DNA of 64,000 nt, from the NCBI GenBank assembly GCA_050700495.1, contig JBOHHF010000044.1:948-64947 (forward strand), in the 5' to 3' direction. Of the stretch, positions 19,875 through 55,105 are shown piece after piece. The translations under genes were made by a program, and so were the position numbers. Source of the stretch: Pseudonocardiaceae bacterium (GTDB lineage Bacteria; Actinomycetota; Actinomycetes; Mycobacteriales; Pseudonocardiaceae). Every line of letters starts with the position of its first letter. The first letter of the stretch is position 1. The notes below the pieces were generated by a model. That model had not been told where the DNA came from and made no database searches. It was given only the letters and a program-made list of their open reading frames with translations.

Positions 19875-21296
19875 TTAAGTGAGTCGGCTGAGGAAGCGGC
19901 CGACTTTGGCCACGGTGCTGGGGTTCTCGGTCAGCGCGTAGTCGTAGAGCGCGATGGGGATCGCGAAGGAGTACGTCGGGTAGGCGTGGATCGAGCTGAT
20001 GATCGCGTCGACGGTGAGGTCGTTGTTCATCGCCAAGGTCAGCTCGTTGATCAGCTCGCCGGCGCACTGCCCAGCGATGTGAGCGCCGATGAGCCGCCGT
20101 TTGCCGTCGATCAGGAACTTCATCAGGCCGACGGGTTCGGCATCAGTGACCGCACGTTCGTTGTGGCTGTACGGAAAGCGCACAATTTCGCAACTGTCGC
20201 CGGCCGCGCGCACCTGCGCCTCGGTGCGGCCGACGTGCGCGATCTCCGGGTCGGTGAAGGTCACCCAGGGCAGGTGGCCAGGGGCGAACTTCGCCTTGAT
20301 CGGGACGAAGATGTTGCGCACCGCATGCGCCGCCTGGTGACCGGCGTAGTGGGTGAACGCCGGCCCGCCGGTCACATCGCCGACGGCGTAGATGTGTGAC
20401 TGGTTGGTCTGGAGCAGGCCATTGACGGCGATTCCCCGCGCGTTGGTAAGAACCCCTGCGGCGTCGAGCTCCAGCGATTCCACTGTGGGCACCCGCCCGA
20501 CCGCGCACAGGATCTGGTCCACCCGCAGCTCGCCAGCGTCGACGGTGGGGCCAAGCGTCAGCACGACGTCCCCGCCGTCGCGGTGCACTTCGCTGAGCCG
20601 GGTATCCAGCCGCACGTCGATACCCTCATCGGCGAAATGGCGCTCCAGTATCTCGATCATCTCGGCGTCGTCGCGGGGGATCAGATGCGGCCCGCGCTGC
20701 AGCACGGTCACCGTGGAGCCGAGCCGGTGCAGCGCCTGCGCGAGCTCCACGCCGATCGGGCCGCCACCGATCACCGCCAGCCGGGCTGGTAGATCGTTCA
20801 AGTCGAAGACGTCCTCGTTGGTGAGGTAGCCGACCTCGGCCAGCCCCTCGACATCCGGTACCGCCGGGCGGCTACCGGAGGCGATCAGGACGAACTTGGC
20901 GGTGACATCTCGGTCTCTCACCCGCAGCGTGTGCGGGTCGCGAAAGGTGGCGCCGCCGAGCAGGACATCCACTCCGAGCTCGGAGAGCGCCTCGACGTCG
21001 TCGAGCTTGCCGATGTCGGCGATGGCCCGCTGCACCCGGGCGTTGACCGCGGCAAGCCCGGCGTGCACGGGCTGCACGGACAGTCCCCACCGCACAGCGG
21101 TGGCCGCCTCGTGGGCCACCCGGGATGCCTTGATCAGCGCCTTGCTCGGCACGCAACCGTAGTGCAGGCAGTCCCCGCCCAGCCGATCCTTGTCGATCAA
21201 CGCGACCCGCTTGGCGAAGAACCGGGCCAGCCGGGCAGCAGTCAGCCCACCCGACCCCGCCCCGATGATCGCCAGGTCGTACTCAAAGGACGGCAT
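19875..21296 (-). CDS. class I pyridine nucleotide-disulfide oxidoreductase (dihydrolipoamide dehydrogenase / mercuric reductase-like flavoprotein)
   Basis: YDLAIIGAGSGG FAD fold, redox disulfide GGDCLHYGCVPSK, second Rossmann LAVIGGGPIGVE and a C-terminal dimerisation domain with HAYPT. ATG 21296 is preferred over ATG 21374, which lies inside a hairpin arm. Confidence 0.85.
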   Translation of the reverse strand: MPSFEYDLAIIGAGSGGLTAARLARFFAKRVALIDKDRLGGDCLHYGCVPSKALIKASRVAHEAATAVRWGLSVQPVHAGLAAVNARVQRAIADIGKLDDVEALSELGVDVLLGGATFRDPHTLRVRDRDVTAKFVLIASGSRPAVPDVEGLAEVGYLTNEDVFDLNDLPARLAVIGGGPIGVELAQALHRLGSTVTVLQRGPHLIPRDDAEMIEILERHFADEGIDVRLDTRLSEVHRDGGDVVLTLGPTVDAGELRVDQILCAVGRVPTVESLELDAAGVLTNARGIAVNGLLQTNQSHIYAVGDVTGGPAFTHYAGHQAAHAVRNIFVPIKAKFAPGHLPWVTFTDPEIAHVGRTEAQVRAAGDSCEIVRFPYSHNERAVTDAEPVGLMKFLIDGKRRLIGAHIAGQCAGELINELTLAMNNDLTVDAIISSIHAYPTYSFAIPIALYDYALTENPSTVAKVGRFLSRLT

Positions 21297-21321: not shown

Positions 21322-21383
21322 GCGTTCTGGATGCAGACTGCCCTAATCGGGCCCTGGATTACCGCAGTCTGCATCCAGAACGC
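21322..21383. repeat. perfect 20-bp inverted repeat with 22-bp spacer
   Basis: GCGTTCTGGATGCAGACTGC (21322-21341) and GCAGTCTGCATCCAGAACGC (21364-21383). The repeat spans the stop codon of the Prx-like gene and sits upstream of the reductase start. Confidence 0.9.
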
Positions 21384-21900
21384 ATGTCGTTACCAGGCGC
21401 GCAGGGCGAACCCGGTCGTCGGGTGTGCGGGGCAGCCAGCGGCGGACCACGACGCCGTCGCACACCAGCGCGTCACCGCCCATCTGCCGGATGTCCTCCA
21501 CCGGCCGCGGCAGGTGCTGCCCGCGCGCTGCCGCGATCGCGTAGCGAGCCAGCGTTCCCGGCGAGTACACCTGCCACAGCCTGGCGCGGCGCATACCGAG
21601 CAACCCGTAGAGCCAGCGGTCCTCATCTGCGAGGAACAGACCCGGCCAGCCGACGTGGTCTGCGAGCGCGGCGAGCGCGGCGGGTGGGCTGAACCCGAAG
21701 GCGACCAACCCGATCGGGCAGCCGGCAGCCTGCTCGCGCACCTGCACCAGGTGCTGCTGGCAGGGCAGTCAATACCGGTGCCGGATCGCGGTGAGCAGGT
21801 ACCGGCCGGGTAGCACGCCGAGATCCACGGCCCGGCCGGTGCGTGCGTCGGGCAGCATGAGCCCGTCGAGCGGGACGGGCAGCTCGATCTCACGTGGCAC
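21343..21900 (-). CDS. peroxiredoxin-like thiol-disulfide oxidoreductase (AhpC/TSA_2, PRXL2-type) with an in-frame TGA at the first Cys of CxxC (candidate Sec codon or nonsense)
   Basis: Reading from GTG 21900 gives VPREIELPVPLDGLMLPDARTGRAVDLGVLPGRYLLTAIRHRY-TGA-LPCQQHLVQVREQAAGCPIGLVAFGF... The TGA (21769-21771) is in frame and gives x-L-P-C, where the family has C-x-x-C (compare FIRRPGCFLCRE). The start overlaps the radical SAM stop by 11 nt. Confidence 0.6.
21738..21754 (-). promoter_or_regulatory. SECIS-like stem-loop candidate 14 nt downstream of the in-frame UGA
   Basis: The mRNA reads UGA-CUGCCCUGCCAGCA-GCACCUG GUG CAGGUGC, a 7-bp stem with a G/U apical loop. Flanking GCCAGCAGC / GCUGCCGGC could add a lower stem. 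No folding was run. Confidence 0.3.
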
Positions 21901-23299
21901 TGCGATCCTGCTGCCGGGCGTCGACGATCGGCAGCAACCGGCGCAGCTCGACGTTCTCGACCGGATCGAGCACCGAGTGCTGCACGCAGGCGGGGACGAG
22001 CTCGCCGGTCTCCGGGTGGGCCATCGCGTAGTGGCAGGACGCGAGCCGCTCCTGGGTGGCGAGAATCCGCGGATCGGCGGCTTTCTCGCCGCGTTGCATC
22101 AGCTCCCACGCCGGCGCGACGTCTGCTGCGTCCATGAACTGGTGCACCACGAACGACACCGGTCGCACGCCGTGTCGCAGCAGGATCGCAACTCCACCGA
22201 CGCGCCGTACGAGGCGGGCGATCCACCGGGCCGCGATCACCACGATCACCGGATGGCGCACGATCGTCCGCACCAGCTTGCCGGCCAGGTCCGGCGCCTC
22301 CACCCCGGTGAAGTTCACCCCACCGAAGTAGCGGAAGAAGGCGTCCCTGGTGGCGCGGTCACCGGCGTCGTCGCCGGTCAGGAACGGGTGCCAGCGTGGG
22401 CCGACGAAGAACCCGTAGGCCGCTCGGTTGCAGCGCACGTCGCCGTGCTGGAACGCGGTGTAGTCCAGCTCGCCGCCCGCACCCCGCTCGATCTCCTGCC
22501 ATACCTCGTCCATGCCGGTCTGCTCGTAGTCCTCGTGCCAGCGCCGGTTGTCCCCGACGAACGCCGCAGGCTGGAAAGAGAACATCCCGAAACCCATCGC
22601 GCGGCAGTCCCGCACGACGTCGGCGACCTGGCCGAGGTTCGCCGGGGTGACGGTCATGTTGTGCGCCAGGAAGAACCGCACCCCGTGCGTGCAGCGCAGC
22701 CGGGTGAACATGTCGACGAACTTCTGCCGGTACGGATTGAGCTCCCGCTCGCTGCCCGCCCGCGGGATGTCACGGCGGCCGAACATGAGCATGTCGAAGT
22801 GCCCGGCGAAGGACAGCCGCCGCAGCCGTGGCCGTCCATGCTCATCCAGCGCGAGCTGCTCCAGATAGTCGTAATCGAAGTCGCCGTGGGACATGCTCAT
22901 CGGCTCACGCCCGTACCGGCGCATGGTCAGCAACGTCGCCGCGTGGTCGTCCGGGCTGAGCAGGGTCACCTCCCCGCCGATCAGCTGCGCGTGGGCCCGC
23001 GGACCACGCAGCCGGCGCAGCAGTGCCATCTGCTTGTCGACCTCGGCGATCGTGTGCGCACCGTCCACGCGGACCCGGTTGGCGTCCCGCGAGTGGTAAC
23101 ACGGTGTGCAGGCCAGGTCGCATCGCGGGAACACCCCGTGGGTTCCCTCACAGCCCACCGCATGCTTGCCGAGGAGCTGACCGGGTGTCTTGACATGCTC
23201 GGGAAGCTCCGCCCAGCGGCGGTCCAGCACGGCGGCGAACTCCGGATCGACCGGCCGGGTTCGGCGTTCCCACCGTCGCAACACATCGATCACGCTCAT
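21890..23299 (-). CDS. radical SAM enzyme, unassigned family (469 aa, hydrophobic helix near C-terminal third)
   Basis: GVFPRCDLACTPCYH contains CxxxCxxC. A long TIM-like region follows (LIGGEVTLL, FFLAHNMTV, FSFQPAAF), then hydrophobic VRHPVIVVIAARWIARLV and a C-terminal Cys/His pair (SCHYAMAH...PACVQH). ATG 23299 follows GAAAGG. Confidence 0.8.
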   Translation of the reverse strand: MSVIDVLRRWERRTRPVDPEFAAVLDRRWAELPEHVKTPGQLLGKHAVGCEGTHGVFPRCDLACTPCYHSRDANRVRVDGAHTIAEVDKQMALLRRLRGPRAHAQLIGGEVTLLSPDDHAATLLTMRRYGREPMSMSHGDFDYDYLEQLALDEHGRPRLRRLSFAGHFDMLMFGRRDIPRAGSERELNPYRQKFVDMFTRLRCTHGVRFFLAHNMTVTPANLGQVADVVRDCRAMGFGMFSFQPAAFVGDNRRWHEDYEQTGMDEVWQEIERGAGGELDYTAFQHGDVRCNRAAYGFFVGPRWHPFLTGDDAGDRATRDAFFRYFGGVNFTGVEAPDLAGKLVRTIVRHPVIVVIAARWIARLVRRVGGVAILLRHGVRPVSFVVHQFMDAADVAPAWELMQRGEKAADPRILATQERLASCHYAMAHPETGELVPACVQHSVLDPVENVELRRLLPIVDARQQDRSAT

Positions 23300-23493: not shown

Positions 23494-23532
23494 ATGACGA
23501 GGCTGGCTCTACGACGAGATTGGCCCCCATGA
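23494..23532 (+). other. 12-codon upstream ORF (MTRLALRRDWPP) with stop overlapping the main ATG (ATGA)
   Basis: ATG 23494 lies 7 nt after GAGAGGG. The TGA at 23530-23532 overlaps ATG 23529 of the fusion gene. Its first six codons encode the same MTRLAL as the main ORF. It is part of a 3-copy 17-18-nt tandem repeat (23494-23546). Confidence 0.3.
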
Positions 23533-25217
23533 CGAGATTGGCACTGTGCGGTGGGACCTACTCCAACCCCTACGCGTTGCGAGCTTTCGTGGCCGACGCC
23601 CGGGGGCGCGGTGCCGGCCGGCTGTGGTGCCTGGGTGACTTCGGTGCCTACGGCGCGGAGCCGGAGGCGATCTGGCCGTTACTGACCGGCAACGGCATCG
23701 AGTGCATCGCCGGCAACTACGAACTCGCCATCGGCCGGGGCGACCCCGACTGCGGCTGCGGGTACGCCGACGCCGACGACAACGCCTTCGCCGCGATCGC
23801 CTATGACTACACCCTGCGGCACACCTCCACGGAGTTCGCGGCGTGGATGCGGACCTTGGCCACCGAGCATCGGGAGACCGTCGGCGGGGTAGCGGTGCAC
23901 CTCGTGCACGGCTCCCCGCTGGCCGTCAACGACTTCTGGTGGGAATCACTGCCTGACGACGCGCACCGGATGCGGATCGAGGCGTCCGGTGCGGAGGTGA
24001 TCTGCTGCACGCACTCCGGGCTGCCGTGGACCAGGCGTTTTTCCGGTTCGGGCCGCGACACCCTGGTAGTTAACGTCGGGGTGCTCGGCCGGCCGGCCAA
24101 CGACGGTGGCCAACACGTCTGGTACGCGCTGCTGGACTGCGCCGACGGCCACACCACTGTCGACCTGGTGGCCCTGGACTACGACTGGCAGGCGCACGCC
24201 GCCTCGATGCACGACGCCGGGTTACCGGAGGCGTTCACCCAGGCCGTGGAGACCGGATGGTGGACCACCTGCCTGGAGATCGTGCCGCCGGTGGAACGTT
24301 CCCGTGGTCGCTTCCAGCTCTACAAATCGGCGATGCCGTCCTTCGCCGGCGCGGCGGTCTCCTGGGCGGCAGCGCCGGAGATCCCGGACAACGGCCTGCC
24401 GGTGCTGCCGCTGTTCGGCTCCGCGCTGTTCCCGCCCCGCCTGTGGCTCTACATCAACTTCCACTGCAACCTGGCCTGCAGCTACTGCTCGGTCGCCTCG
24501 TCCCCGCTGGCCCGCCGTCGCCAGCTGGGCCTGCCCCGCTTCCGGGAACTGGTGGACGACGCGGTCGCGGAGGGCTTCACCGAGCTGTACGTCACCGGTG
24601 GCGAGCCCTTCCTCGAACGCGACCTTGTCGAGATGCTGCTGTACGCCACCGAGCAGCTCGACGTGGTCTGCCTGACCAACGCCATGCTGTATCAGGGCTG
24701 GCGACGCACCCAGCTGGAGCGGCTGGCCGGACGCCAACGGCTGATCCTGCAGACCTCACTGGACGGAGCGCAGGCCGATTTCCATGACGCCTACCGGGGG
24801 CCCGGGTCCTGGGCCAAGGCGATGGACGGCCTGGACGTGGCCCTGTCACTGGGGCTGCCGGTACGGGTAGGCATGACCGAGACGGCGCAGAACTCCACCC
24901 AGATCGAGCCGCTGCGGGCGCTGCTGGCCGCCAAGGGGATACATGGCCGGGACTTCGCAGTGCGGCCGCTGGTCAAGCGGGGATTCTCCGTCGACGGGGT
25001 GGCCATCAGCGAGGACAACACCGTGCCGGAGCTGACCGTCACCACTGACGGATGGCACTGGCACCCGGCCGGCGCTGACCTCGACACCTCGCCGGACATG
25101 CTGCTCGCCGGACCCGACGTCAGCATGGCCGAGGCCAAGCGGCGCGCGGTGGAGTTGTTCCTGCGGCTTCGCCAGCGCGACGGCTCACTACCGCTGGTCT
25201 ACAACTGTGCCGTCTAA
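23529..25217 (+). CDS. metallophosphoesterase (CGCGY subfamily) - radical SAM fusion protein
   Basis: 562 aa. The N-terminal half has LGDFGAYG, IAGNYE, GDPDCGCGYAD, VHGSP, CCTHSG and GVLGRPANDG (calcineurin-like fold). The C-terminal half has LYINFHCNLACSYCSV (CxxxCxxC), YVTGGEPF and LQTSLDG, with no SPASM-type Cys cluster. Confidence 0.8.
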   Translation: MTRLALCGGTYSNPYALRAFVADARGRGAGRLWCLGDFGAYGAEPEAIWPLLTGNGIECIAGNYELAIGRGDPDCGCGYADADDNAFAAIAYDYTLRHTSTEFAAWMRTLATEHRETVGGVAVHLVHGSPLAVNDFWWESLPDDAHRMRIEASGAEVICCTHSGLPWTRRFSGSGRDTLVVNVGVLGRPANDGGQHVWYALLDCADGHTTVDLVALDYDWQAHAASMHDAGLPEAFTQAVETGWWTTCLEIVPPVERSRGRFQLYKSAMPSFAGAAVSWAAAPEIPDNGLPVLPLFGSALFPPRLWLYINFHCNLACSYCSVASSPLARRRQLGLPRFRELVDDAVAEGFTELYVTGGEPFLERDLVEMLLYATEQLDVVCLTNAMLYQGWRRTQLERLAGRQRLILQTSLDGAQADFHDAYRGPGSWAKAMDGLDVALSLGLPVRVGMTETAQNSTQIEPLRALLAAKGIHGRDFAVRPLVKRGFSVDGVAISEDNTVPELTVTTDGWHWHPAGADLDTSPDMLLAGPDVSMAEAKRRAVELFLRLRQRDGSLPLVYNCAV

Positions 25218-33534: not shown

Positions 33535-33634
33535 GTGTCCTCCGTCAGCTCGGTCGTACTCGGTTGGCCCGTAAAGTGTGGGCCACTCCAGCAAACCTAT
33601 TCGACGCGCACAGGAGATCGGATCGACCACGACC

Positions 33635-34363
33635 ATGGTGAGCAAGCCGGCGACGGTGTCGATCGTGGTGCCCGCGCTCAACGAGGCGGCATGCATCGAG
33701 GGCTGTCTGCAACGGTTGCGCCGCGACTTTCCGGACGGCGAGCTGGTGGTGGTGGACGGCGGCAGTATCGATGAGACCTTCGACCTCGCAGCGCGGCATG
33801 CCCACACCGTCCGCAGCGTGCCGGGCCGCGCCGTCCAGATGAACGCTGGAGCCGCACTGACCACCGGTGACATCCTCTGGTTCATCCACGTGGACTGCCA
33901 GGTCCCGGCCGAGGCCCTGGACCTGCTCCGGCGCGCGATGCTCGACCCCGACGTGGTCGGAGGAGGGTTGCAGCTGAGCTTCGATCAGCGCACGCTGGGG
34001 TTGGACTATCTGGCAATCAGCTCCAACCAGCGGGCTCGGCGGCTGCACTGGATCTTCGGCGACCAGGCGATGTTCGTCCGCCGGGAGGTGTTCGAGGCGG
34101 TGGGCGGCTTTCCTGAGTTACCGCTCATGGAGGACCTGGAGATGTCCCGGATCCTACGGCGACATGGCCGGCTCGCGGTGCTGCCGGCCACTGTCACCGC
34201 ATCGGCCCGGCGGCTCGTCGAGCAGGGGACGTGGCGCATGACCGTGCTGATGCAGGTTCTCAAGCTGCAGTACTTCCTCGGCGTAGACCCGGAGCGGATT
34301 CGTCGCCGCTATGAAGCCGGCACTCGTCGCGGGCGCCGGCGCCGCTCGGCCTCCTCCCAGTAG
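33635..34363 (+). CDS. GT2 glycosyltransferase
   Basis: VSIVVPALNEA, LVVVDGGSIDET, ILWFIHVDC and MEDLEMS motifs. The C-terminal tail is Arg-rich. Confidence 0.75.
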   Translation: MVSKPATVSIVVPALNEAACIEGCLQRLRRDFPDGELVVVDGGSIDETFDLAARHAHTVRSVPGRAVQMNAGAALTTGDILWFIHVDCQVPAEALDLLRRAMLDPDVVGGGLQLSFDQRTLGLDYLAISSNQRARRLHWIFGDQAMFVRREVFEAVGGFPELPLMEDLEMSRILRRHGRLAVLPATVTASARRLVEQGTWRMTVLMQVLKLQYFLGVDPERIRRRYEAGTRRGRRRRSASSQ

Positions 34364-51360: not shown

Positions 51361-52557
51361 ATGACTCGGTGGGTACGGGCGATCAGGCACGGCTGGGTGG
51401 TCAACGGCGGCGTACCCGGACCTGACGTCGACGAGTTCGCCGAGGCCACTGAGGTGGTGGCGGCGCTGGCCGGGCCCCGGCGTGGTGACACGCTGTTGGC
51501 CGTGCAGCATCCGCATCGCACGCCCGAGGCATTGGCTGAAGGGCTTTCGTTGGTGGCGGCGCTGCCAGCGGCACGGCAAGCCCTGGACCGGTTGCGGGTC
51601 AGCGCGTATCGCCAGGTGGACGACGTGGTGGCCCCCTATCGGGTGGACGGTCCGGACGGGGTCGCGGTCGGCGTACTGTGCCTGGTCGATTCGGCCGCCG
51701 TGGACATGCACGGCGTTTTCCGGGTAAGGCACAGCGAGCAGGTCTATCCGGAGGTGGTGGCCGAACGCGCCACGGTGCTCGCCGGGCTTGGCTGCGCGAC
51801 CAGCGCGGCGATGCTCGTGCCGGTCGTTGATGGTGACCAGTTGACCGCGGCTGTGCTGCGGAGCATCGAGTCACTGGGAGGGCCGGCGGTGTCGACCACC
51901 GATTCCGGCGGTCGGACCCACCAGTTGTGGTTGCTGGGTACCGGAGCGGGCCAGGATGCAGTGCTCGCCGCTACGGCTCGCAGTCCGCTACTGGTCGCTG
52001 ACGGCAATCACCGGGTAGCCGCCGCGGCCACCGGCGATGAGTCCAGCCTGCTCGCCTTGGTGACCGGTGGACCGGCGCTGCGCATCGGCGCGATCCATCG
52101 CGCACTGGTCGGCACCGGGCTGACCGCTGAGGATCTGGCCGCTGCCTGGCGTCGGAAGGGCGTGACGGTGCGCGAAGCCATGGATCCGGGTCCACCGGTC
52201 ATGGCTGGCACTGTGGTGGTGAGGGCATCCAGCGCCGCTCTGCTCGTCGAACTGCCCAGACCCGAGCCGGGCGAGCCGGTGCCCAGGCTTGATCATGGGC
52301 TAGTCGAACGGCTGCTCATCGCCGATGCGCTGGGCATCGACCCGGAAGGTCCGCAGGTACATGCCCTACCCGCTGGACATCCCGCGGGCGCGGGCGTCGA
52401 TGCCGTGCTGCAACTGGCCCCGGTGCCGTTCGCCGACGTGCTCGCGGTGCACGGGCAAGGCCGGCGGATGCCGCGCAAGAGCACCTATTTCACCCCGAAA
52501 CCGCGCAGCGGACTGCTGCTGGCCGACCTCACCGGCATCGCGCGGGCACCGGTGTGA
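51361..52557 (+). CDS. DUF1015 family protein
   Basis: LLVADGNHR and a C-terminal MPRKSTYFTPKPRSGLL segment are typical of DUF1015. ATG 51361 lies 9 nt after the prenyltransferase stop. Confidence 0.7.
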   Translation: MTRWVRAIRHGWVVNGGVPGPDVDEFAEATEVVAALAGPRRGDTLLAVQHPHRTPEALAEGLSLVAALPAARQALDRLRVSAYRQVDDVVAPYRVDGPDGVAVGVLCLVDSAAVDMHGVFRVRHSEQVYPEVVAERATVLAGLGCATSAAMLVPVVDGDQLTAAVLRSIESLGGPAVSTTDSGGRTHQLWLLGTGAGQDAVLAATARSPLLVADGNHRVAAAATGDESSLLALVTGGPALRIGAIHRALVGTGLTAEDLAAAWRRKGVTVREAMDPGPPVMAGTVVVRASSAALLVELPRPEPGEPVPRLDHGLVERLLIADALGIDPEGPQVHALPAGHPAGAGVDAVLQLAPVPFADVLAVHGQGRRMPRKSTYFTPKPRSGLLLADLTGIARAPV

Positions 52558-54208
52558 GGTCACGGCTGTCGATGATCTCGTCGCACCAGTGCCGGGCCAC
52601 GGCGAGATCGTGGGTGATGAGCAGGACCCCGAGGCCGGAACGCTCCTGCTCCTCCGCGACAGCTGCGAGCAGCGCGGCCTGGGTGGACACGTCGAGCATC
52701 GAGGTGGGCTCATCGCAGAGCAGGTAGCGGGGCCGCAGGATGAGGGAGCGAGCGAGGCAGGCGCGCTGAAGCTGGCCGTCGGACACCTCGTGCGGGGAGC
52801 GGCGCAGCAGATCGGGGGTGAGGCCCATCCGGGTCGCCCAACCGAGGGTGAGCTCCCACCGCTCGGCTGCGGTGGCGGGCAACTCCCGGTGGATCGCGAG
52901 CGGTTCGAGGATCGTCTACTGCAAGGTCAGGCGTGGGTCAGCGGCCTGGCGCGGTAATTGCCAGACCAGCTGGACACGCCGGCGCACCTGCTTCGGCACG
53001 GCGAGCTCGTGGCCGGTGACCGGGACGCCGTCGAGGACGACACGTCCGTGGTCCGGGGCCAGCAGCAGCGCGAGCACGGCTGTCAGGGTCGACTTGCCGC
53101 ACCCGCTCGGACCGACCAGTCCGAGGCGGGCACCAGGTGCCAGAGATAGAGTGGCGCCGTCGAGGACGGTGATCCGCCCGTCGGGACCATCGAAGACTTT
53201 GGTGACCCGCTCAGCGGTCAGCACGCCGGACGCACCGGACCTCCCCGTCGTCGATCGGATGCAGGGCAGGCAGGGCGTCGCGGCAGAGGTCGAGGGCCTC
53301 GGTGCAGCGCGGGCGAACGGGCAGCCCGGCGGCAGCGCGGTGAGCTCAGGGGTCAAGCCCGGGATCGGCACCCCGCCGCGCTCGATGAGCGCTCCCAGCA
53401 GGGCCCGGCCGTAGGGGTGGGTGGGCCGGGTGAAGAAGGCCGCCGTGGGCCGCGGCTCAACGAGGTGGCTGGCGTAGAGCAGGGCGAGCCGGCCGCCGAG
53501 CTGCTCCGCCAGCCGCAGATCGTGGGTGATCACGAGCAGCGCGGACCCGGCGGCGACCACGTCGAGGAGCTGCCCGGCCGTGGCGTCGGCGAAGTCGGCG
53601 TCGAGCCCGTGGGTCGGCTCGTCGGCGATCACGAGGTCCGGTGTGGACACCAGGGATCCCGCATTGACCACCCGCTGCTGCATCCCGCCGGAGAGCTGAT
53701 GGGCGTAGCGGCGGGCAACGGCGGCGAAGGATAGGCCGGTGCCGCGCAGCCGTGCGTCGAGTCGGGGTCGGGCGTCGTCGGCCGTGAGCTCGCGGCGGCC
53801 TGCCCACTCGAGGAGCTGGCCACCGAGCCGTTTGACGGGGTCGAGCGCGGTGCCGGCACTCTGCGGGATCAGCGCGATCCGCCGCCCGCGGACCGCACGC
53901 AGCCGCCGTTCGGGCAGCACGAGCAGGTCGGTCCCGTCGAGGAGAACTTGCCCGCCGACCTCGGCGTTGCGCGGCAGTAGCCGCAGGATCGCGTGCGTCA
54001 GTATGGTCTTGCCGCTGCCGCTCTCGCCGGCGAGCACGACGACCTCGCCGGCCTGGATCGCGAGGTCGACGCCGCCGAGAGCCTGCACCACGCCGTGCTC
54101 GGTGCGGAAGCGGACGGTCAGCGCCCGGAGGTCCACCAGCGGTGGGGCGGGTTCGGGCGCGGTGCTCTTGGCTACCGGCTCCTCGGCGACCGGCTCGCGG
54201 GGCTTCAT
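52529..54208 (-). pseudogene. fused two-domain ABC ATPase of a peptide/nickel-type importer (DppD-DppF-like), in-frame TAG plus a probable internal double frameshift
   Basis: First domain: GESGSGKT, LSGGMQQR, VIADEPTHGLD. Second domain: GPSGCGKST ...DPRLTLQ-TAG(52916-52918)-TILEPLAIHREL... SDGQLQR, LLCDEPTSMLD, all in the same frame. Around 53225-53320 the alternative frame reads the expected GCPFA.RCTEALDLCRDALPAL. Confidence 0.75.
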
Positions 54209-55105
54209 AGTTGCAGCTCCGATCGCCACCGCGGGTTGCGCCGGTCGCGCCACCACTCCCCGAGTGTGCCGACGGCCATCGACGCCAGCAGGATCACCAA
54301 ACCGGGGAACAGGCTGGCCCACCATCCGCCGGACAGCAGCGAGGCCTGGCTGTCGGCCAGCAGGTTGCCCAGCGACGCCGACTCCGGCGGCATGCCGAGG
54401 CCGAGGAAGGAATAATCGGCCTCGTGGAAATCGCATGCGGCACCAGCAGCACGAACCCGAGCGCAGTGGCCGGGAACACGTGCGGCAGGAAATGCCGCCG
54501 GGCCAGGCGCCGCCGCCCGGCACCGGCGTTGACCGACGCGGCCACGAACTTCTGCTCGCGAAGCGACAGCACCTCGCCTCGGACGATGCGGGTTACCGAC
54601 GTCCAGTGCGTCACGCCGACCGACAGGAAGATCGCGCCGGCGGGCCCGACCAGCGGCCGGGACAGCACCAGGATGAGGATGCCGAACAGGAAGTGGTTCT
54701 GCGAGGACAGCACGTCGATCAGCCGCATGGCCACCGCGTCGAGCCGGCGGCCGGCCGAGCCGGCGGCCAGGCCCACCAGCGCGCCGAGGGTCGCCGCGCA
54801 CAGCGCGGCCACGATGCTGATGCCAAACGAGGTCCGCATCGCGTGCAGCACCCGGGTGAACAGGTCCCGGCCGAGGCGTCGGTGCCCATAAGGTGAGCCG
54901 GTGACGGTGGCTGCAGGGCTTGGTCGAAGAAGACCGACCGGGTGTCCAGTGGCGTGATGAACAGGGCCGCTACCGACAGCAGCGCGAGGACGGCGATCAC
55001 CGCGACGGATACCGCGGCCGCACCGGGCAGCCGGCGCAGGCGCGGAAATGGCGAGAGCCGGCGGGGGCGCGCGGGCGGGGCAGGGGTCGTCGCCGGGGCG
55101 GTCAT
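54205..55105 (-). pseudogene. ABC importer permease (DppC/NikC-like), two frameshifts
   Basis: The text runs across three frames. First: N-terminal TM and HLMGTD. Second, from about 54875: RLGRDLFTRVLHAMRTSFGISIV.... Third, from about 54430: FHEADYSFLGLGMPPESASLGNLL...RSELQL. ATGA overlaps occur at both ends. Confidence 0.7.

What the first reader, a model, noticed from the sequence alone, without database searches (positions are those of the whole stretch)
21343..21900. In-frame UGA exactly at the first Cys of the CxxC motif of a Prx-like gene: candidate UxxC selenoprotein
Seen:
- The minus-strand frame from GTG 21900 to TAG 21343 is a continuous 185-codon Prx-like (AhpC/TSA_2, PRXL2-type) sequence apart from one TGA at 21769-21771.
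- That codon gives ...LLTAIRHRY-[TGA]-LPC-QQHL..., the position where this family carries the redox-active C-x-x-C (for example FIRRPGCFLCRE).
- Fourteen nt downstream the mRNA can form GCACCUG-GUG-CAGGUGC, with possible lower-stem pairing GCCAGCAGC/GCUGCCGGC. That is roughly the spacing and G/U apical loop expected of a bacterial SECIS.

Established: thioredoxin-fold and Prx-like proteins with UxxC are recurrent bacterial selenoproteins. Sec insertion needs a SECIS hairpin directly after the UGA.

Inference: this is either a Sec codon or a TGC/TGT->TGA nonsense mutation. The second option must be taken seriously, because two other in-frame stops and many frameshifts occur in accessory genes of this window.
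Basis: partly seen in the sequence, partly recalled or inferred. Interest (0 to 1): 0.75.

Follow-up and report, generated by a model that had tools for sequence, protein, structure and literature searches.

The report
Unannotated actinobacterial UxxC selenoprotein gene
The in-frame TGA is almost certainly a genuine selenocysteine codon in a thioredoxin-fold, peroxiredoxin-like redox protein that is conserved across soil Pseudonocardiaceae, and public annotation truncates this gene everywhere.

Summary
GTG 21900 to TAG 21343 (minus strand) is one 185-codon Prx-like frame with a single TGA at 21769-21771.

- **Not a nonsense mutation.** The aligned codon is TGA in 99 of 102 related loci (44-99% protein identity) and TGC (Cys) in the other 3.
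- **The upstream part is translated.** The 42-43 codons before the TGA are conserved in frame, with dN/dS about 0.3.
- **Catalytic position.** The codon aligns with the first, invariant Cys of CxxC in full-length Cys homologues, in human PRXL2B and in TlpA.
- **SECIS-type hairpin.** A 6-7 bp hairpin (GCACCUG-GUG-CAGGUGC, 21738-21754) starts 14 nt after UGA. It is paired in every locus, and synonymous variation is suppressed around it.
- **Wider family.** Six sampled distant relatives, including one with 36% GC, also carry TGA. Three of them show compensatory changes in the stem.
- **Weaknesses.** The Sec machinery (selA/B/C/D) could not be checked in this genome, but the literature reports SelD/SelA/SelB in many Pseudonocardiaceae.
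- **Context.** The gene sits in a conserved cluster: radical-SAM, then the U-protein, then an FAD disulfide reductase.

Verdict: a real but unannotated selenoprotein, a divergent branch of the SelL-related/PRXL2-like family. It is a new member of a known kind.

The parts
21343..21900 (-). Full selenoprotein gene: 185 codons, GTG start at 21898-21900, TAG stop at 21343-21345. It is a Prx-like/PRXL2-like thioredoxin-fold protein with the motif RHRY-U-LPC.
   Evidence: The start position is conserved (GTG in 24 and ATG in 1 of 25 sequences, the window included). There are 42-43 codons before U in 90 of 96 loci. Every database homologue is called as a truncated 104-175 aa ORF.
21769..21771 (-). 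UGA read as selenocysteine (residue 44), the first position of the U-x-x-C redox motif.
   Evidence: TGA in 99 of 102 related loci and TGC in 3. It aligns with the invariant first Cys of the Cys-form homologues and of PRXL2B and TlpA.
21760..21762 (-). TGC codon for Cys47, the presumed resolving Cys of U-L-P-C.
   Evidence: Cys is invariant in 92 of 92 aligned sequences of the clade. It varies in some distant Cys-form homologues.
21738..21754 (-). Candidate bacterial SECIS core: 5' arm GCACCUG (21754-21748), loop GUG (21747-21745), 3' arm CAGGUGC (21744-21738). It starts 14 nt after UGA. The family consensus is a 6-bp stem with a 5-nt loop, S-G-U-N-S.
   Evidence: Six stem pairs are kept in 89 of 89 unique sequences. 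Local dG is -7.6 to -12 kcal/mol at the same register in six variants. Val54 is GTG in 92 of 92, whereas loop codon Val52 is GTC/GTG/GTT/GTA. Compensatory changes occur in L109, L113 and L114.
21755..21768 (-). 14-nt spacer between UGA and the hairpin (CUGCCCUGCCAGCA). It encodes L-P-C-Q-Q and is nearly invariant at the nucleotide level.
21890..23299 (-). Upstream gene: a divergent radical-SAM protein of about 469 aa (CxxxCxxC = CDLACTPC). Its TGA stop overlaps the selenoprotein start by 11 nt.
   Evidence: Weak Radical_SAM hits; sequence. Homology in other loci begins near residue 62-78 of the long ORF. It lies next to the U-gene in all close loci and near it in about 15 distant ones.
19875..21296 (-). 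Downstream gene: a class I FAD/NAD(P)H pyridine-nucleotide disulfide oxidoreductase of 473 aa with the redox-active motif GGDCLHYGCVPSK. It is the proposed reductase partner.
   Evidence: It sits directly downstream in nearly every close locus whose fetched DNA reaches that far, in L042, and in the distant relative L115.
23529..25217 (+). Divergently transcribed gene: a fusion of a metallophosphoesterase with an Rv1681-family radical-SAM domain (562 aa).
   Evidence: The Rv1681-type rSAM lies directly upstream of the U-gene on the same strand in about 15 distant loci.
21322..21383 (-). Perfect 20-bp inverted repeat with a 22-nt loop, spanning the selenoprotein stop codon, 26 nt before the reductase ATG.
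   Evidence: dG -45 kcal/mol, z -5.7. It is shared only by a sub-clade, and its function is unknown.

Best explanation
The gene at 21343-21900(-) encodes a full-length protein of about 19 kDa with a thioredoxin fold, related to PRXL2 and SelL. UGA 21769-21771 is decoded as selenocysteine, giving a U44-L-P-C47 redox centre at the N-terminus of helix alpha1.

Proposed recoding mechanism (inferred by analogy with E. coli fdhF): the hairpin 14 nt downstream presents a G-U-containing apical loop about 22 nt after the UGA. SelB.GTP.Sec-tRNA(Sec) binds this loop and delivers Sec to the ribosomal A site in competition with release factor 2.

Proposed chemistry (inferred from family and gene context): the selenolate of U44 attacks an oxidised substrate, either a peroxide/endoperoxide or a disulfide. 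A selenenylsulfide then forms with C47. It is re-reduced by the co-transcribed FAD/NAD(P)H disulfide reductase, whose active site is CLHYGC.

The persistent linkage to two radical-SAM genes suggests that the redox couple serves that pathway.

Shown here: TGA conservation, the Sec/Cys pair, the translated N-terminus, the conserved hairpin, the fold and the synteny. Inferred: Sec insertion itself, SelB binding, the reductase partnership and the substrate.
For: (1) TGA in 24 of 24 species-representative genomes that cover the site. Across 102 loci at 44-99% identity it is TGA in 99 and TGC in 3. It is also TGA in the isolate Pseudonocardia nigra and in a Pseudonocardia sp. MAG.

(2) The upstream 42-43 codons keep frame, start codon and sequence. 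dN/dS is 0.31 upstream against 0.19 downstream.

(3) All 120 best database homologues are truncated calls covering only the C-terminal 49-72% of the query. In the library of 50%-identity representatives only about 12 of the 150 listed are full-length. Those carry Cys at the aligned site, and that first Cys is invariant.

(4) Six of six sampled short representatives from distant bacteria (31-34% identity, one at 36% GC) have the same N-terminus followed by TGA. Two of them score above the NF040769 cutoff.

(5) The hairpin is paired in 100% of 89 unique sequences, against 24-48% in register-shifted controls. Codon entropy is 0.41 bit at codons 45-55 and 1.16 bit elsewhere (p = 1.2e-4). Val54 is GTG in 92 of 92 where Val usage in these genes is 46% GTG and 44% GTC. 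The loop's third base is free. Compensatory changes are C-G to U-A, C-G to G-C, and G-C to C-G in L109, L114 and L113.

(6) TGA is the ordinary stop of 21 of 32 genes in the window, so the code is not reassigned.

(7) The profile matches PRXL2B with U on Cys44 of its CxxC. An AlphaFold model of a Cys-form relative (pLDDT 86) places that Cys at the start of helix 43-54, and its best PDB match is PRXL2B with TM 0.72/0.79.

(8) SelD/SelA/SelB are reported in Pseudonocardia, Actinomycetospora, Amycolatopsis and Saccharomonospora (supplement of PMC5029168). Selenium-dependent FDH and expressed SelA/B/D are reported in Actinomycetospora (PMC7176365).

(9) The cluster rSAM -> U-gene -> FAD reductase is conserved.
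Against: - selA, selB, selC and selD could not be looked for in this genome. None lies in the 64-kb window or in the fetched loci.
- No Rfam SECIS family matches.
- Inside the actinobacterial clade the stem never varies, so there is no covariation there. With distant relatives added, the three compensatory events are not significant against the shuffle control (29 of 500).
- Part of the nucleotide conservation could come from the invariant peptide HLVQV.
- The three Cys-form loci keep the hairpin, so the hairpin is not strictly tied to TGA. This is expected after a recent Sec-to-Cys change.
- The folding energy of the 72-nt region is not better than that of shuffled sequence.
- The protein scores below the NF040769 cutoff.
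- The reductase partnership and the substrate rest on gene context only.
Confidence: 0.88

Rival explanations
1. The TGA is a recent TGC/TGT->TGA nonsense mutation and the gene is a pseudogene, like other damaged accessory genes in this window.
For: Another in-frame stop, TAG 52916-52918, splits a two-domain ABC ATPase, and the downstream ORF continues the ABC_tran domain. So the assembly does contain disrupted genes.
Against: The same TGA is present in 99 of 102 loci from different species and samples. Both halves are under purifying selection, and there are no further stops or frameshifts. Distant relatives in other bacteria also carry it.
Confidence: 0.01
2. The TGA is a true stop. The locus encodes two products, a 43-residue peptide and a protein of about 130 aa that is re-initiated downstream, for example at the invariant GTG of Val54.
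For: Gene callers everywhere predict exactly this split. GTG at codon 54 is invariant.
Against: The stop is always TGA and never TAA or TAG, even at 36% GC. Three loci and about 12 representative clusters have Cys there with one continuous ORF. A product starting at Val54 would lack strand beta1 and the redox motif of the fold. The residues L-P-C-Q-Q-H-L-V between the TGA and any restart are the most conserved in the protein.
Confidence: 0.03
3. The UGA is read through without selenium, by near-cognate Trp- or Cys-tRNA or some other suppression, possibly stimulated by the downstream hairpin.
For: Sec machinery has not been demonstrated for this genome. The hairpin is short and matches no curated SECIS model.
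Against: The site is the catalytic Cys position, where only Cys or Sec would keep function, and Cys is the only alternative codon observed. Hairpin position and the G-U loop fit SelB-type elements. The Sec trait is common in this bacterial family. There is no precedent for a conserved non-Sec UGA read-through at a CxxC site in bacteria (my own knowledge).
Confidence: 0.06

Closest known systems
NCBIfam NF040769 'SelL-related redox protein' (bacterial PRXL2/SelL-like proteins)
   Same: This is the best family hit, covering residues 24-171. It shares the RH..[U/C]xxC motif and the C-terminal ED.RQLGGD...P.DR signature. Bona fide members (L109 and L111, 144-154 bits) also have TGA at the same codon and a hairpin at about the same distance.
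   Different: The window protein and its clade score only 81-94 bits, below the curated cutoff of 120. They form a divergent actinobacterial branch with its own gene context (rSAM and FAD reductase). The 2026 inventory of 119 prokaryotic selenoprotein families does not list NF040769.
[quoted passage not shown]
   Same: These are thioredoxin-fold, Prx-related proteins with Sec at the first position of the redox motif, and Sec forms outnumber Cys forms. One relative found here, L116, is UxxU.
   Different: The listed families are defined on other domain models or motifs (PF00578; UxxS for cd02970) and come mostly from Deltaproteobacteria or marine metagenomes. The clade described here is from soil Pseudonocardiaceae and is annotated only as truncated 'AhpC/TSA family protein'.
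Eukaryotic PRXL2B (prostamide/prostaglandin F synthase), PRXL2A, and selenoprotein L
   Same: PRXL2B is the best sequence-profile and best fold match in the PDB, and U44 aligns with PRXL2B Cys44 of C44xxC47. SelL is the Sec-containing (UxxU) animal member of the same Prx-like group (PMC2398784).
   Different: Identity is only about 20%. No substrate evidence exists here. SelL has two Sec residues and a eukaryotic 3'-UTR SECIS, whereas this gene has one Sec and an in-ORF bacterial-type hairpin.
E. coli fdhF SECIS / SelB recoding mechanism
   Same: A hairpin lies immediately 3' of the UGA inside the ORF, with a small apical loop containing G-U. Here G25-U26 counted from the U of UGA; in fdhF G23-U24 (my own knowledge).
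   Different: Here the stem is shorter, with no bulged U and no conserved lower helix. SelB binding is untested. Rfam finds no match.
Actinobacterial selenoproteomes as currently described
   Same: These organisms belong to a group in which Sec decoding is common.
   Different: Formate dehydrogenase is reported as the sole predicted selenoprotein in mycobacteria (PMC13449736) and is the only one characterised in Actinomycetospora. This is a non-FDH, redox-type selenoprotein that is widespread in Pseudonocardiaceae.

Membership tests
Bacterial selenoprotein gene (Sec-UGA recoding) | In-frame UGA conserved among orthologues, with coding sequence conserved on both sides | tested here: met
   TGA in 99 of 102 loci. 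N-terminal dN/dS is 0.31. Start codon and N-terminal length are conserved.
Bacterial selenoprotein gene (Sec-UGA recoding) | Cys-containing homologues with Cys aligned to the UGA (Sec/Cys pair) | tested here: met
   TGC in L073, L083 and L085. About 12 full-length Cys-form clusters have that Cys invariant.
Bacterial selenoprotein gene (Sec-UGA recoding) | SECIS hairpin directly downstream of UGA with a small apical loop containing G | tested here: met
   A 6-7 bp stem starts 14 nt after UGA, with loop GUG or SGUNS. It is conserved in all loci with synonymous-site suppression.
Bacterial selenoprotein gene (Sec-UGA recoding) | Covariation that supports the SECIS helix | tested here: inconclusive
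   None within the clade, where the stem is invariant. Three compensatory changes occur in distant relatives, but they are not significant against shuffles (29 of 500).
Bacterial selenoprotein gene (Sec-UGA recoding) | selA, selB, selC (tRNA-Sec) and selD present in the same genome | not testable with these tools
   Not in the window or the loci. There is only family-level literature support.
Bacterial selenoprotein gene (Sec-UGA recoding) | Selenium actually incorporated into a full-length product | not testable with these tools
   Needs 75Se labelling or mass spectrometry.
NCBIfam NF040769 SelL-related redox protein | Whole-protein score at or above the curated cutoff of 120 bits | tested here: not met
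   80.9 bits for the window protein and 93.6 for P. nigra. Distant U-forms L109 and L111 and four of the six Cys forms tested reach 123-166 bits.
Pfam PF13911 AhpC/TSA_2 | Score at or above the gathering threshold of 27 bits | tested here: met
   35.1 bits, E 2e-8, residues 62-152.
Canonical peroxiredoxin (PF00578; PxxxT/SxxC peroxidatic motif) | Pro and Thr/Ser positioned 7 and 3 residues before the peroxidatic Cys/Sec | tested here: not met
   The sequence before U44 is L-T-A-I-R-H-R-Y, with no P at -7 and no T/S at -3. There is no significant PF00578 hit. The motif is thioredoxin-like UxxC.
PRXL2 / prostamide-PGF synthase-like | Thioredoxin-fold protein with an N-terminal CxxC aligned to PRXL2B Cys44/Cys47 and overall fold similarity | tested here: met
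   The profile hit to 9us9 has E 0.002 with the motifs aligned. The Cys-form relative's model against 9usa gives TM 0.72/0.79. The model is of a 52%-identical relative, not of the window protein. Enzymatic equivalence was not tested.
Selenoprotein L (SelL) | UxxU motif (two Sec residues) | tested here: not met
   The window has U-L-P-C. A UxxU variant exists in the distant relative L116.

The most novel reading that the evidence does not exclude
The selenoprotein is the dedicated electron-transfer component of a previously unrecognised, selenium-dependent radical-SAM pathway in Actinobacteria. In this reading NAD(P)H feeds the FAD disulfide reductase, which reduces the U-x-x-C protein, which in turn supports or repairs the chemistry of the two linked radical-SAM enzymes: the 469-aa orphan rSAM and the metallophosphoesterase-Rv1681-type rSAM. 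This would make Sec use in these aerobic soil bacteria serve something other than formate dehydrogenase.
Probability: 0.15. Interest if true: 0.7.

Novelty: new member of a known kind. Interest (0 to 1): 0.5.

Why it matters
**Annotation.** It corrects a systematic error. Every one of the roughly 170 database entries for this clade is a truncated 'AhpC/TSA family' or hypothetical protein that lacks its active site.

**Selenoproteome of Actinobacteria.** It adds a non-FDH redox selenoprotein to Actinobacteria, a group in which formate dehydrogenase is usually treated as the only selenoprotein. That implies a selenium requirement in aerobic soil Pseudonocardiaceae beyond formate oxidation.

**SECIS modelling.** It provides a compact, extremely conserved SECIS-like hairpin from high-G+C organisms that current RNA models miss. 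This could be used to improve selenoprotein finders.

**Pathway lead.** It flags a conserved cluster of radical-SAM genes, the selenoprotein and a flavoprotein reductase whose function is unknown.

Tried and rejected
- **Rfam.** Neither gathering thresholds on the whole window nor a permissive E-value scan of 21650-21850 found a SECIS or any other credible family.
- **ARAGORN.** No tRNA or tRNA-Sec in the window or in 26 loci.
- **Other recoded genes.** A scan for other TGA-interrupted coding frames found none with a coding signature on both sides.
Rejected as a conserved feature, because codons 56-60 vary.
- **Long-range alternative fold.** The 131-nt window sequence can pair the region upstream of UGA with the 3' side (dG -70.7, z -3.4). 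Its outer pairs hold in only 3-30 of 31 close relatives, and the upstream arm changes in distant ones. It was therefore rejected as a conserved structure. It would compete with the SECIS hairpin in this window only.
- **Exact-sequence look-up of P0001.** It was not on record.
- **Sec machinery.** NCBIfam annotation of 32 window proteins found no selA, selB, selD or FDH. It shows a core chromosomal region: gap-pgk-tpi, pgl-opcA-zwf-tal-tkt, ctaB and sufBDCS.
- **The 469-aa rSAM.** Sequence search of the PDB gave nothing, so its function stays unknown.
Full report
**Observation.** Translating window 21343-21900 on the minus strand gives a 185-codon frame with a single internal stop...GRYLLTAIRHRY*LPCQQHLVQVREQ.... 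The TGA is at 21769-21771. With Cys substituted at that site, the protein matches Pfam AhpC-TSA_2 (35.1 bits, cutoff 27). Its best NCBIfam match is NF040769 'SelL-related redox protein' at 80.9 bits, below the cutoff of 120.

**Genomic setting.** The window has 63-72% G+C in 2-kb windows and is a core chromosomal region of a Pseudonocardiaceae MAG. It carries rapZ, whiA, gap-pgk-tpi, pgl-opcA-zwf-pgi-tal-tkt, ctaB, mptB and sufBDCS. TGA terminates 21 of 32 confidently identified genes, so the genetic code is standard. A scan for other TGA-interrupted coding frames found none.

**Is it a nonsense mutation?** No.
- The first protein search showed that all 120 best homologues, down to about 55% identity, are called as 104-175 aa ORFs covering only the C-terminal 49-72% of the query. 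Every gene caller stopped at the same place.
- I fetched DNA from 26 species-representative genomes, 80 metagenome contigs, the isolate Pseudonocardia nigra and a Pseudonocardia sp. MAG.
- The codon aligned to the window's TGA is TGA in 99 of the 102 loci that cover it and TGC in 3 (L073, L083, L085). The surrounding motif is RHR[YFH]-U-LPC-Q[QE]HLVQV.
- The segment before the TGA keeps its start codon (GTG in 24 and ATG in 1 of 25 sequences) and its length (42-43 codons in 90 of 96 loci). Its dN/dS of 0.31, against 0.19 downstream, shows that it is translated.
- This is the classical Sec/Cys-pair signature and excludes a lineage-specific pseudogene.

**Position in the protein.**
- A profile of 31 full-length sequences matches human prostamide/PGF synthase (PRXL2B, 9us9) over 159 of 179 positions. 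'lRhRyClpCq' aligns with 'LRRFGCVVCR', so U44 falls on PRXL2B Cys44. The same profile matches TlpA 'WCVPC'.
- An exhaustive HMMER search of 1.8 billion cluster representatives found 184 relatives. Most are again 120-135 aa truncated calls. About 12 are full-length Cys forms.
- In those Cys forms the first Cys is invariant and the second is not. This marks the U position as the catalytic one.
- An AlphaFold model of a 52%-identical Cys form (pLDDT 86, pTM 0.82) puts this Cys at the N-terminus of helix 43-54, after strand 31-36. Its best PDB neighbour is PRXL2B (TM 0.72/0.79), followed by BCP/PrxQ and ResA.
- The canonical peroxiredoxin PxxxTxxC motif is absent. The protein is a thioredoxin-like UxxC oxidoreductase rather than a typical Prx.

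**The SECIS candidate.**
- In 89 unique sequences, the six pairs G33-C49 to U38-A44 (alignment columns, with UGA at columns 16-18) are maintained in every sequence. The only changes are three single G-U wobble changes.
- The seventh, innermost pair holds in 54 of 80 distinct rows. The consensus is therefore a 6-bp stem with the loop S-G-U-N-S.
- Register-shifted controls pair in only 24-48% of cells.
- Because the stem is invariant, there is no covariation inside the clade. The evidence there is suppression of synonymous change. Codon entropy is 0.41 bit for codons 45-55 and 1.16 bit at other conserved degenerate codons (Mann-Whitney p = 1.2e-4).
- Val54, whose third base pairs with C34, is GTG in 92 of 92 sequences, although Val usage across these genes is 46% GTG and 44% GTC. 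Val52, whose third base sits in the loop, is GTC in 59, GTG in 29, GTT in 3 and GTA in 1.
- The G-U of the loop lies at positions 25-26 counted from the U of UGA. In E. coli fdhF the corresponding bases are G23-U24 (my own knowledge).
- The hairpin folds at the same register in six sequence variants, with dG from -7.6 to -12 kcal/mol.
- Rfam has no match.

**A much wider Sec family.**
- I sampled six short representatives at 31-34% identity from unrelated bacteria, including one genome region at 36% G+C. All six proved to be the same split: N-terminus, then TGA, then xxC.
- The motifs are RHLA-U-LLC, RHLG-U-PPC, RHLA-U-LSC, RHLA-U-LPC, RWLG-U-LPC and, in L116, RHFA-U-VP-U. The last is a UxxU motif like that of eukaryotic SelL.
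- Read through, L109 and L111 score 144-154 bits on NF040769 and are true members. The actinobacterial clade scores only 81-94 bits.
- Three of these relatives keep the hairpin at the same register with compensatory changes: C-G to U-A in L109, C-G to G-C in L114, and G-C to C-G in L113. Two others use a shifted hairpin, CUGKCGC-AGUU-GCGSCRG.
- These events are too few to be significant against the shuffle control (29 of 500).

**Sec machinery.** I could not test this in the genome of origin. Indirect support comes from the literature.
- The supplement of Peng et al. 2016 lists SelD/SelA/SelB as present in Pseudonocardia asaccharolytica, P. dioxanivorans, P. sp. P1, P. spinosispora, Actinomycetospora chiangmaiensis, and in several Amycolatopsis, Saccharomonospora and Saccharopolyspora.
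- Actinomycetospora shows selenium-dependent formate oxidation and expresses SelA, SelB and SelD (PMC7176365).

**Gene context and likely function.**
- The gene overlaps the stop of an upstream radical-SAM gene of about 469 aa (CDLACTPC) by 11 nt.
- It is followed, 46 nt later, by a class I FAD/NAD(P)H disulfide oxidoreductase with the motif GGDCLHYGCVPSK.
- A metallophosphoesterase fused to an Rv1681-family radical-SAM domain is transcribed divergently.
- The order rSAM -> U-gene -> reductase holds in essentially all close loci.
- In more distant actinobacterial loci, one or the other radical-SAM gene stays adjacent. The Rv1681 type is directly upstream on the same strand in about 15 loci.
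- A reductase homologue again follows the gene in the remote relative L115.
- The most economical reading is an NAD(P)H -> flavoprotein -> U/C selenenylsulfide relay that reduces a peroxide or disulfide substrate linked to the radical-SAM enzymes. This step is inference from context only.

**Comparison with what is known.**
- Thioredoxin-fold and Prx-like UxxC selenoproteins are a recurrent bacterial class (PMC1088965, PMC2398784).
- The 2026 inventory of 119 prokaryotic selenoprotein families lists 'Prx-like thiol:disulfide oxidoreductase (PF00578, UxxC/UxxU)' and 'Peroxiredoxin-like family protein (cd02970, UxxS)'. It lists no PF13911/NF040769 UxxC family.
- In mycobacteria, FDH is reported as the sole predicted selenoprotein.
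- The finding is therefore a real, systematically mis-annotated selenoprotein. It is a divergent actinobacterial branch of a known kind, not a new kind.

**Verdict.** The residual uncertainty is the untested Sec machinery and the lack of experimental selenium incorporation. Novelty: new member of a known kind. Interest: 0.5.

Noticed in passing
window 21322-21383: A perfect 20-bp inverted repeat (GCGTTCTGGATGCAGACTGC and its complement) with a 22-nt loop spans the selenoprotein's TAG stop, 26 nt before the reductase ATG. The RNA fold is -45 kcal/mol with z -5.7. It is unique in the window. Both arms are identical in L001-L003 and L006, and a single arm matches in L029 and L047. It encodes the tail ..VLDADCGNPGPD that only this sub-clade has. 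It could be an intercistronic stabiliser, a processing site or a small inserted palindrome.
   Followed up: partly
window 52916-52918 (minus strand); ORFs 52916-54523 and 52529-52882: An in-frame TAG splits a two-domain oligopeptide/GsiA-like ABC ATPase. The 117-aa ORF after the TAG continues the second ABC_tran domain (profile positions 90-137). This looks like a genuine nonsense disruption or an assembly error, unlike the TGA studied here.
   Followed up: partly
L116 404-415: A distant bacterial relative carries two in-frame TGAs, RHFA-U-V-P-U-RQHL. This is a UxxU motif like that of eukaryotic selenoprotein L. A hairpin CUGUCGC-AGUU-GCGGCAG follows.
   Followed up: partly
L028 5527-6201; L113 2122-2808; L027 4988-5641: A DedA/VTT-domain membrane protein gene lies next to or near the U-gene in three otherwise unrelated contexts. 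In L113 the gene also sits beside MerR, MerT, CopZ-like and thioredoxin-like genes. This may hint at a link to metal or metalloid handling.
   Followed up: no
window 23529-25217 (+) and 21890-23299 (-): Two different radical-SAM genes flank a 230-bp divergent intergenic region. One is fused to a calcineurin-like metallophosphoesterase domain and belongs to the Rv1681 (MoeX) family. The other, of 469 aa, has no family assignment. One or the other stays linked to the selenoprotein gene across distant loci.
   Followed up: partly
protein P0140: A 185-aa database protein joins the middle of the 469-aa radical-SAM protein directly to the last 39 or so residues of the selenoprotein (..GVVVRRWLPRTPDDR..GNPGPD). 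This implies a deletion variant or a chimeric assembly of this locus in some sample.
   Followed up: no
window 33578-34363 (+): A TIGR04283-family 'arsenosugar biosynthesis' glycosyltransferase (227 bits, above cutoff) lies about 12 kb from the cluster. The Rv1681-type rSAM also gives a weak hit to the arsenosugar rSAM (seleno)protein ArsS model. No connection was established.
   Followed up: no
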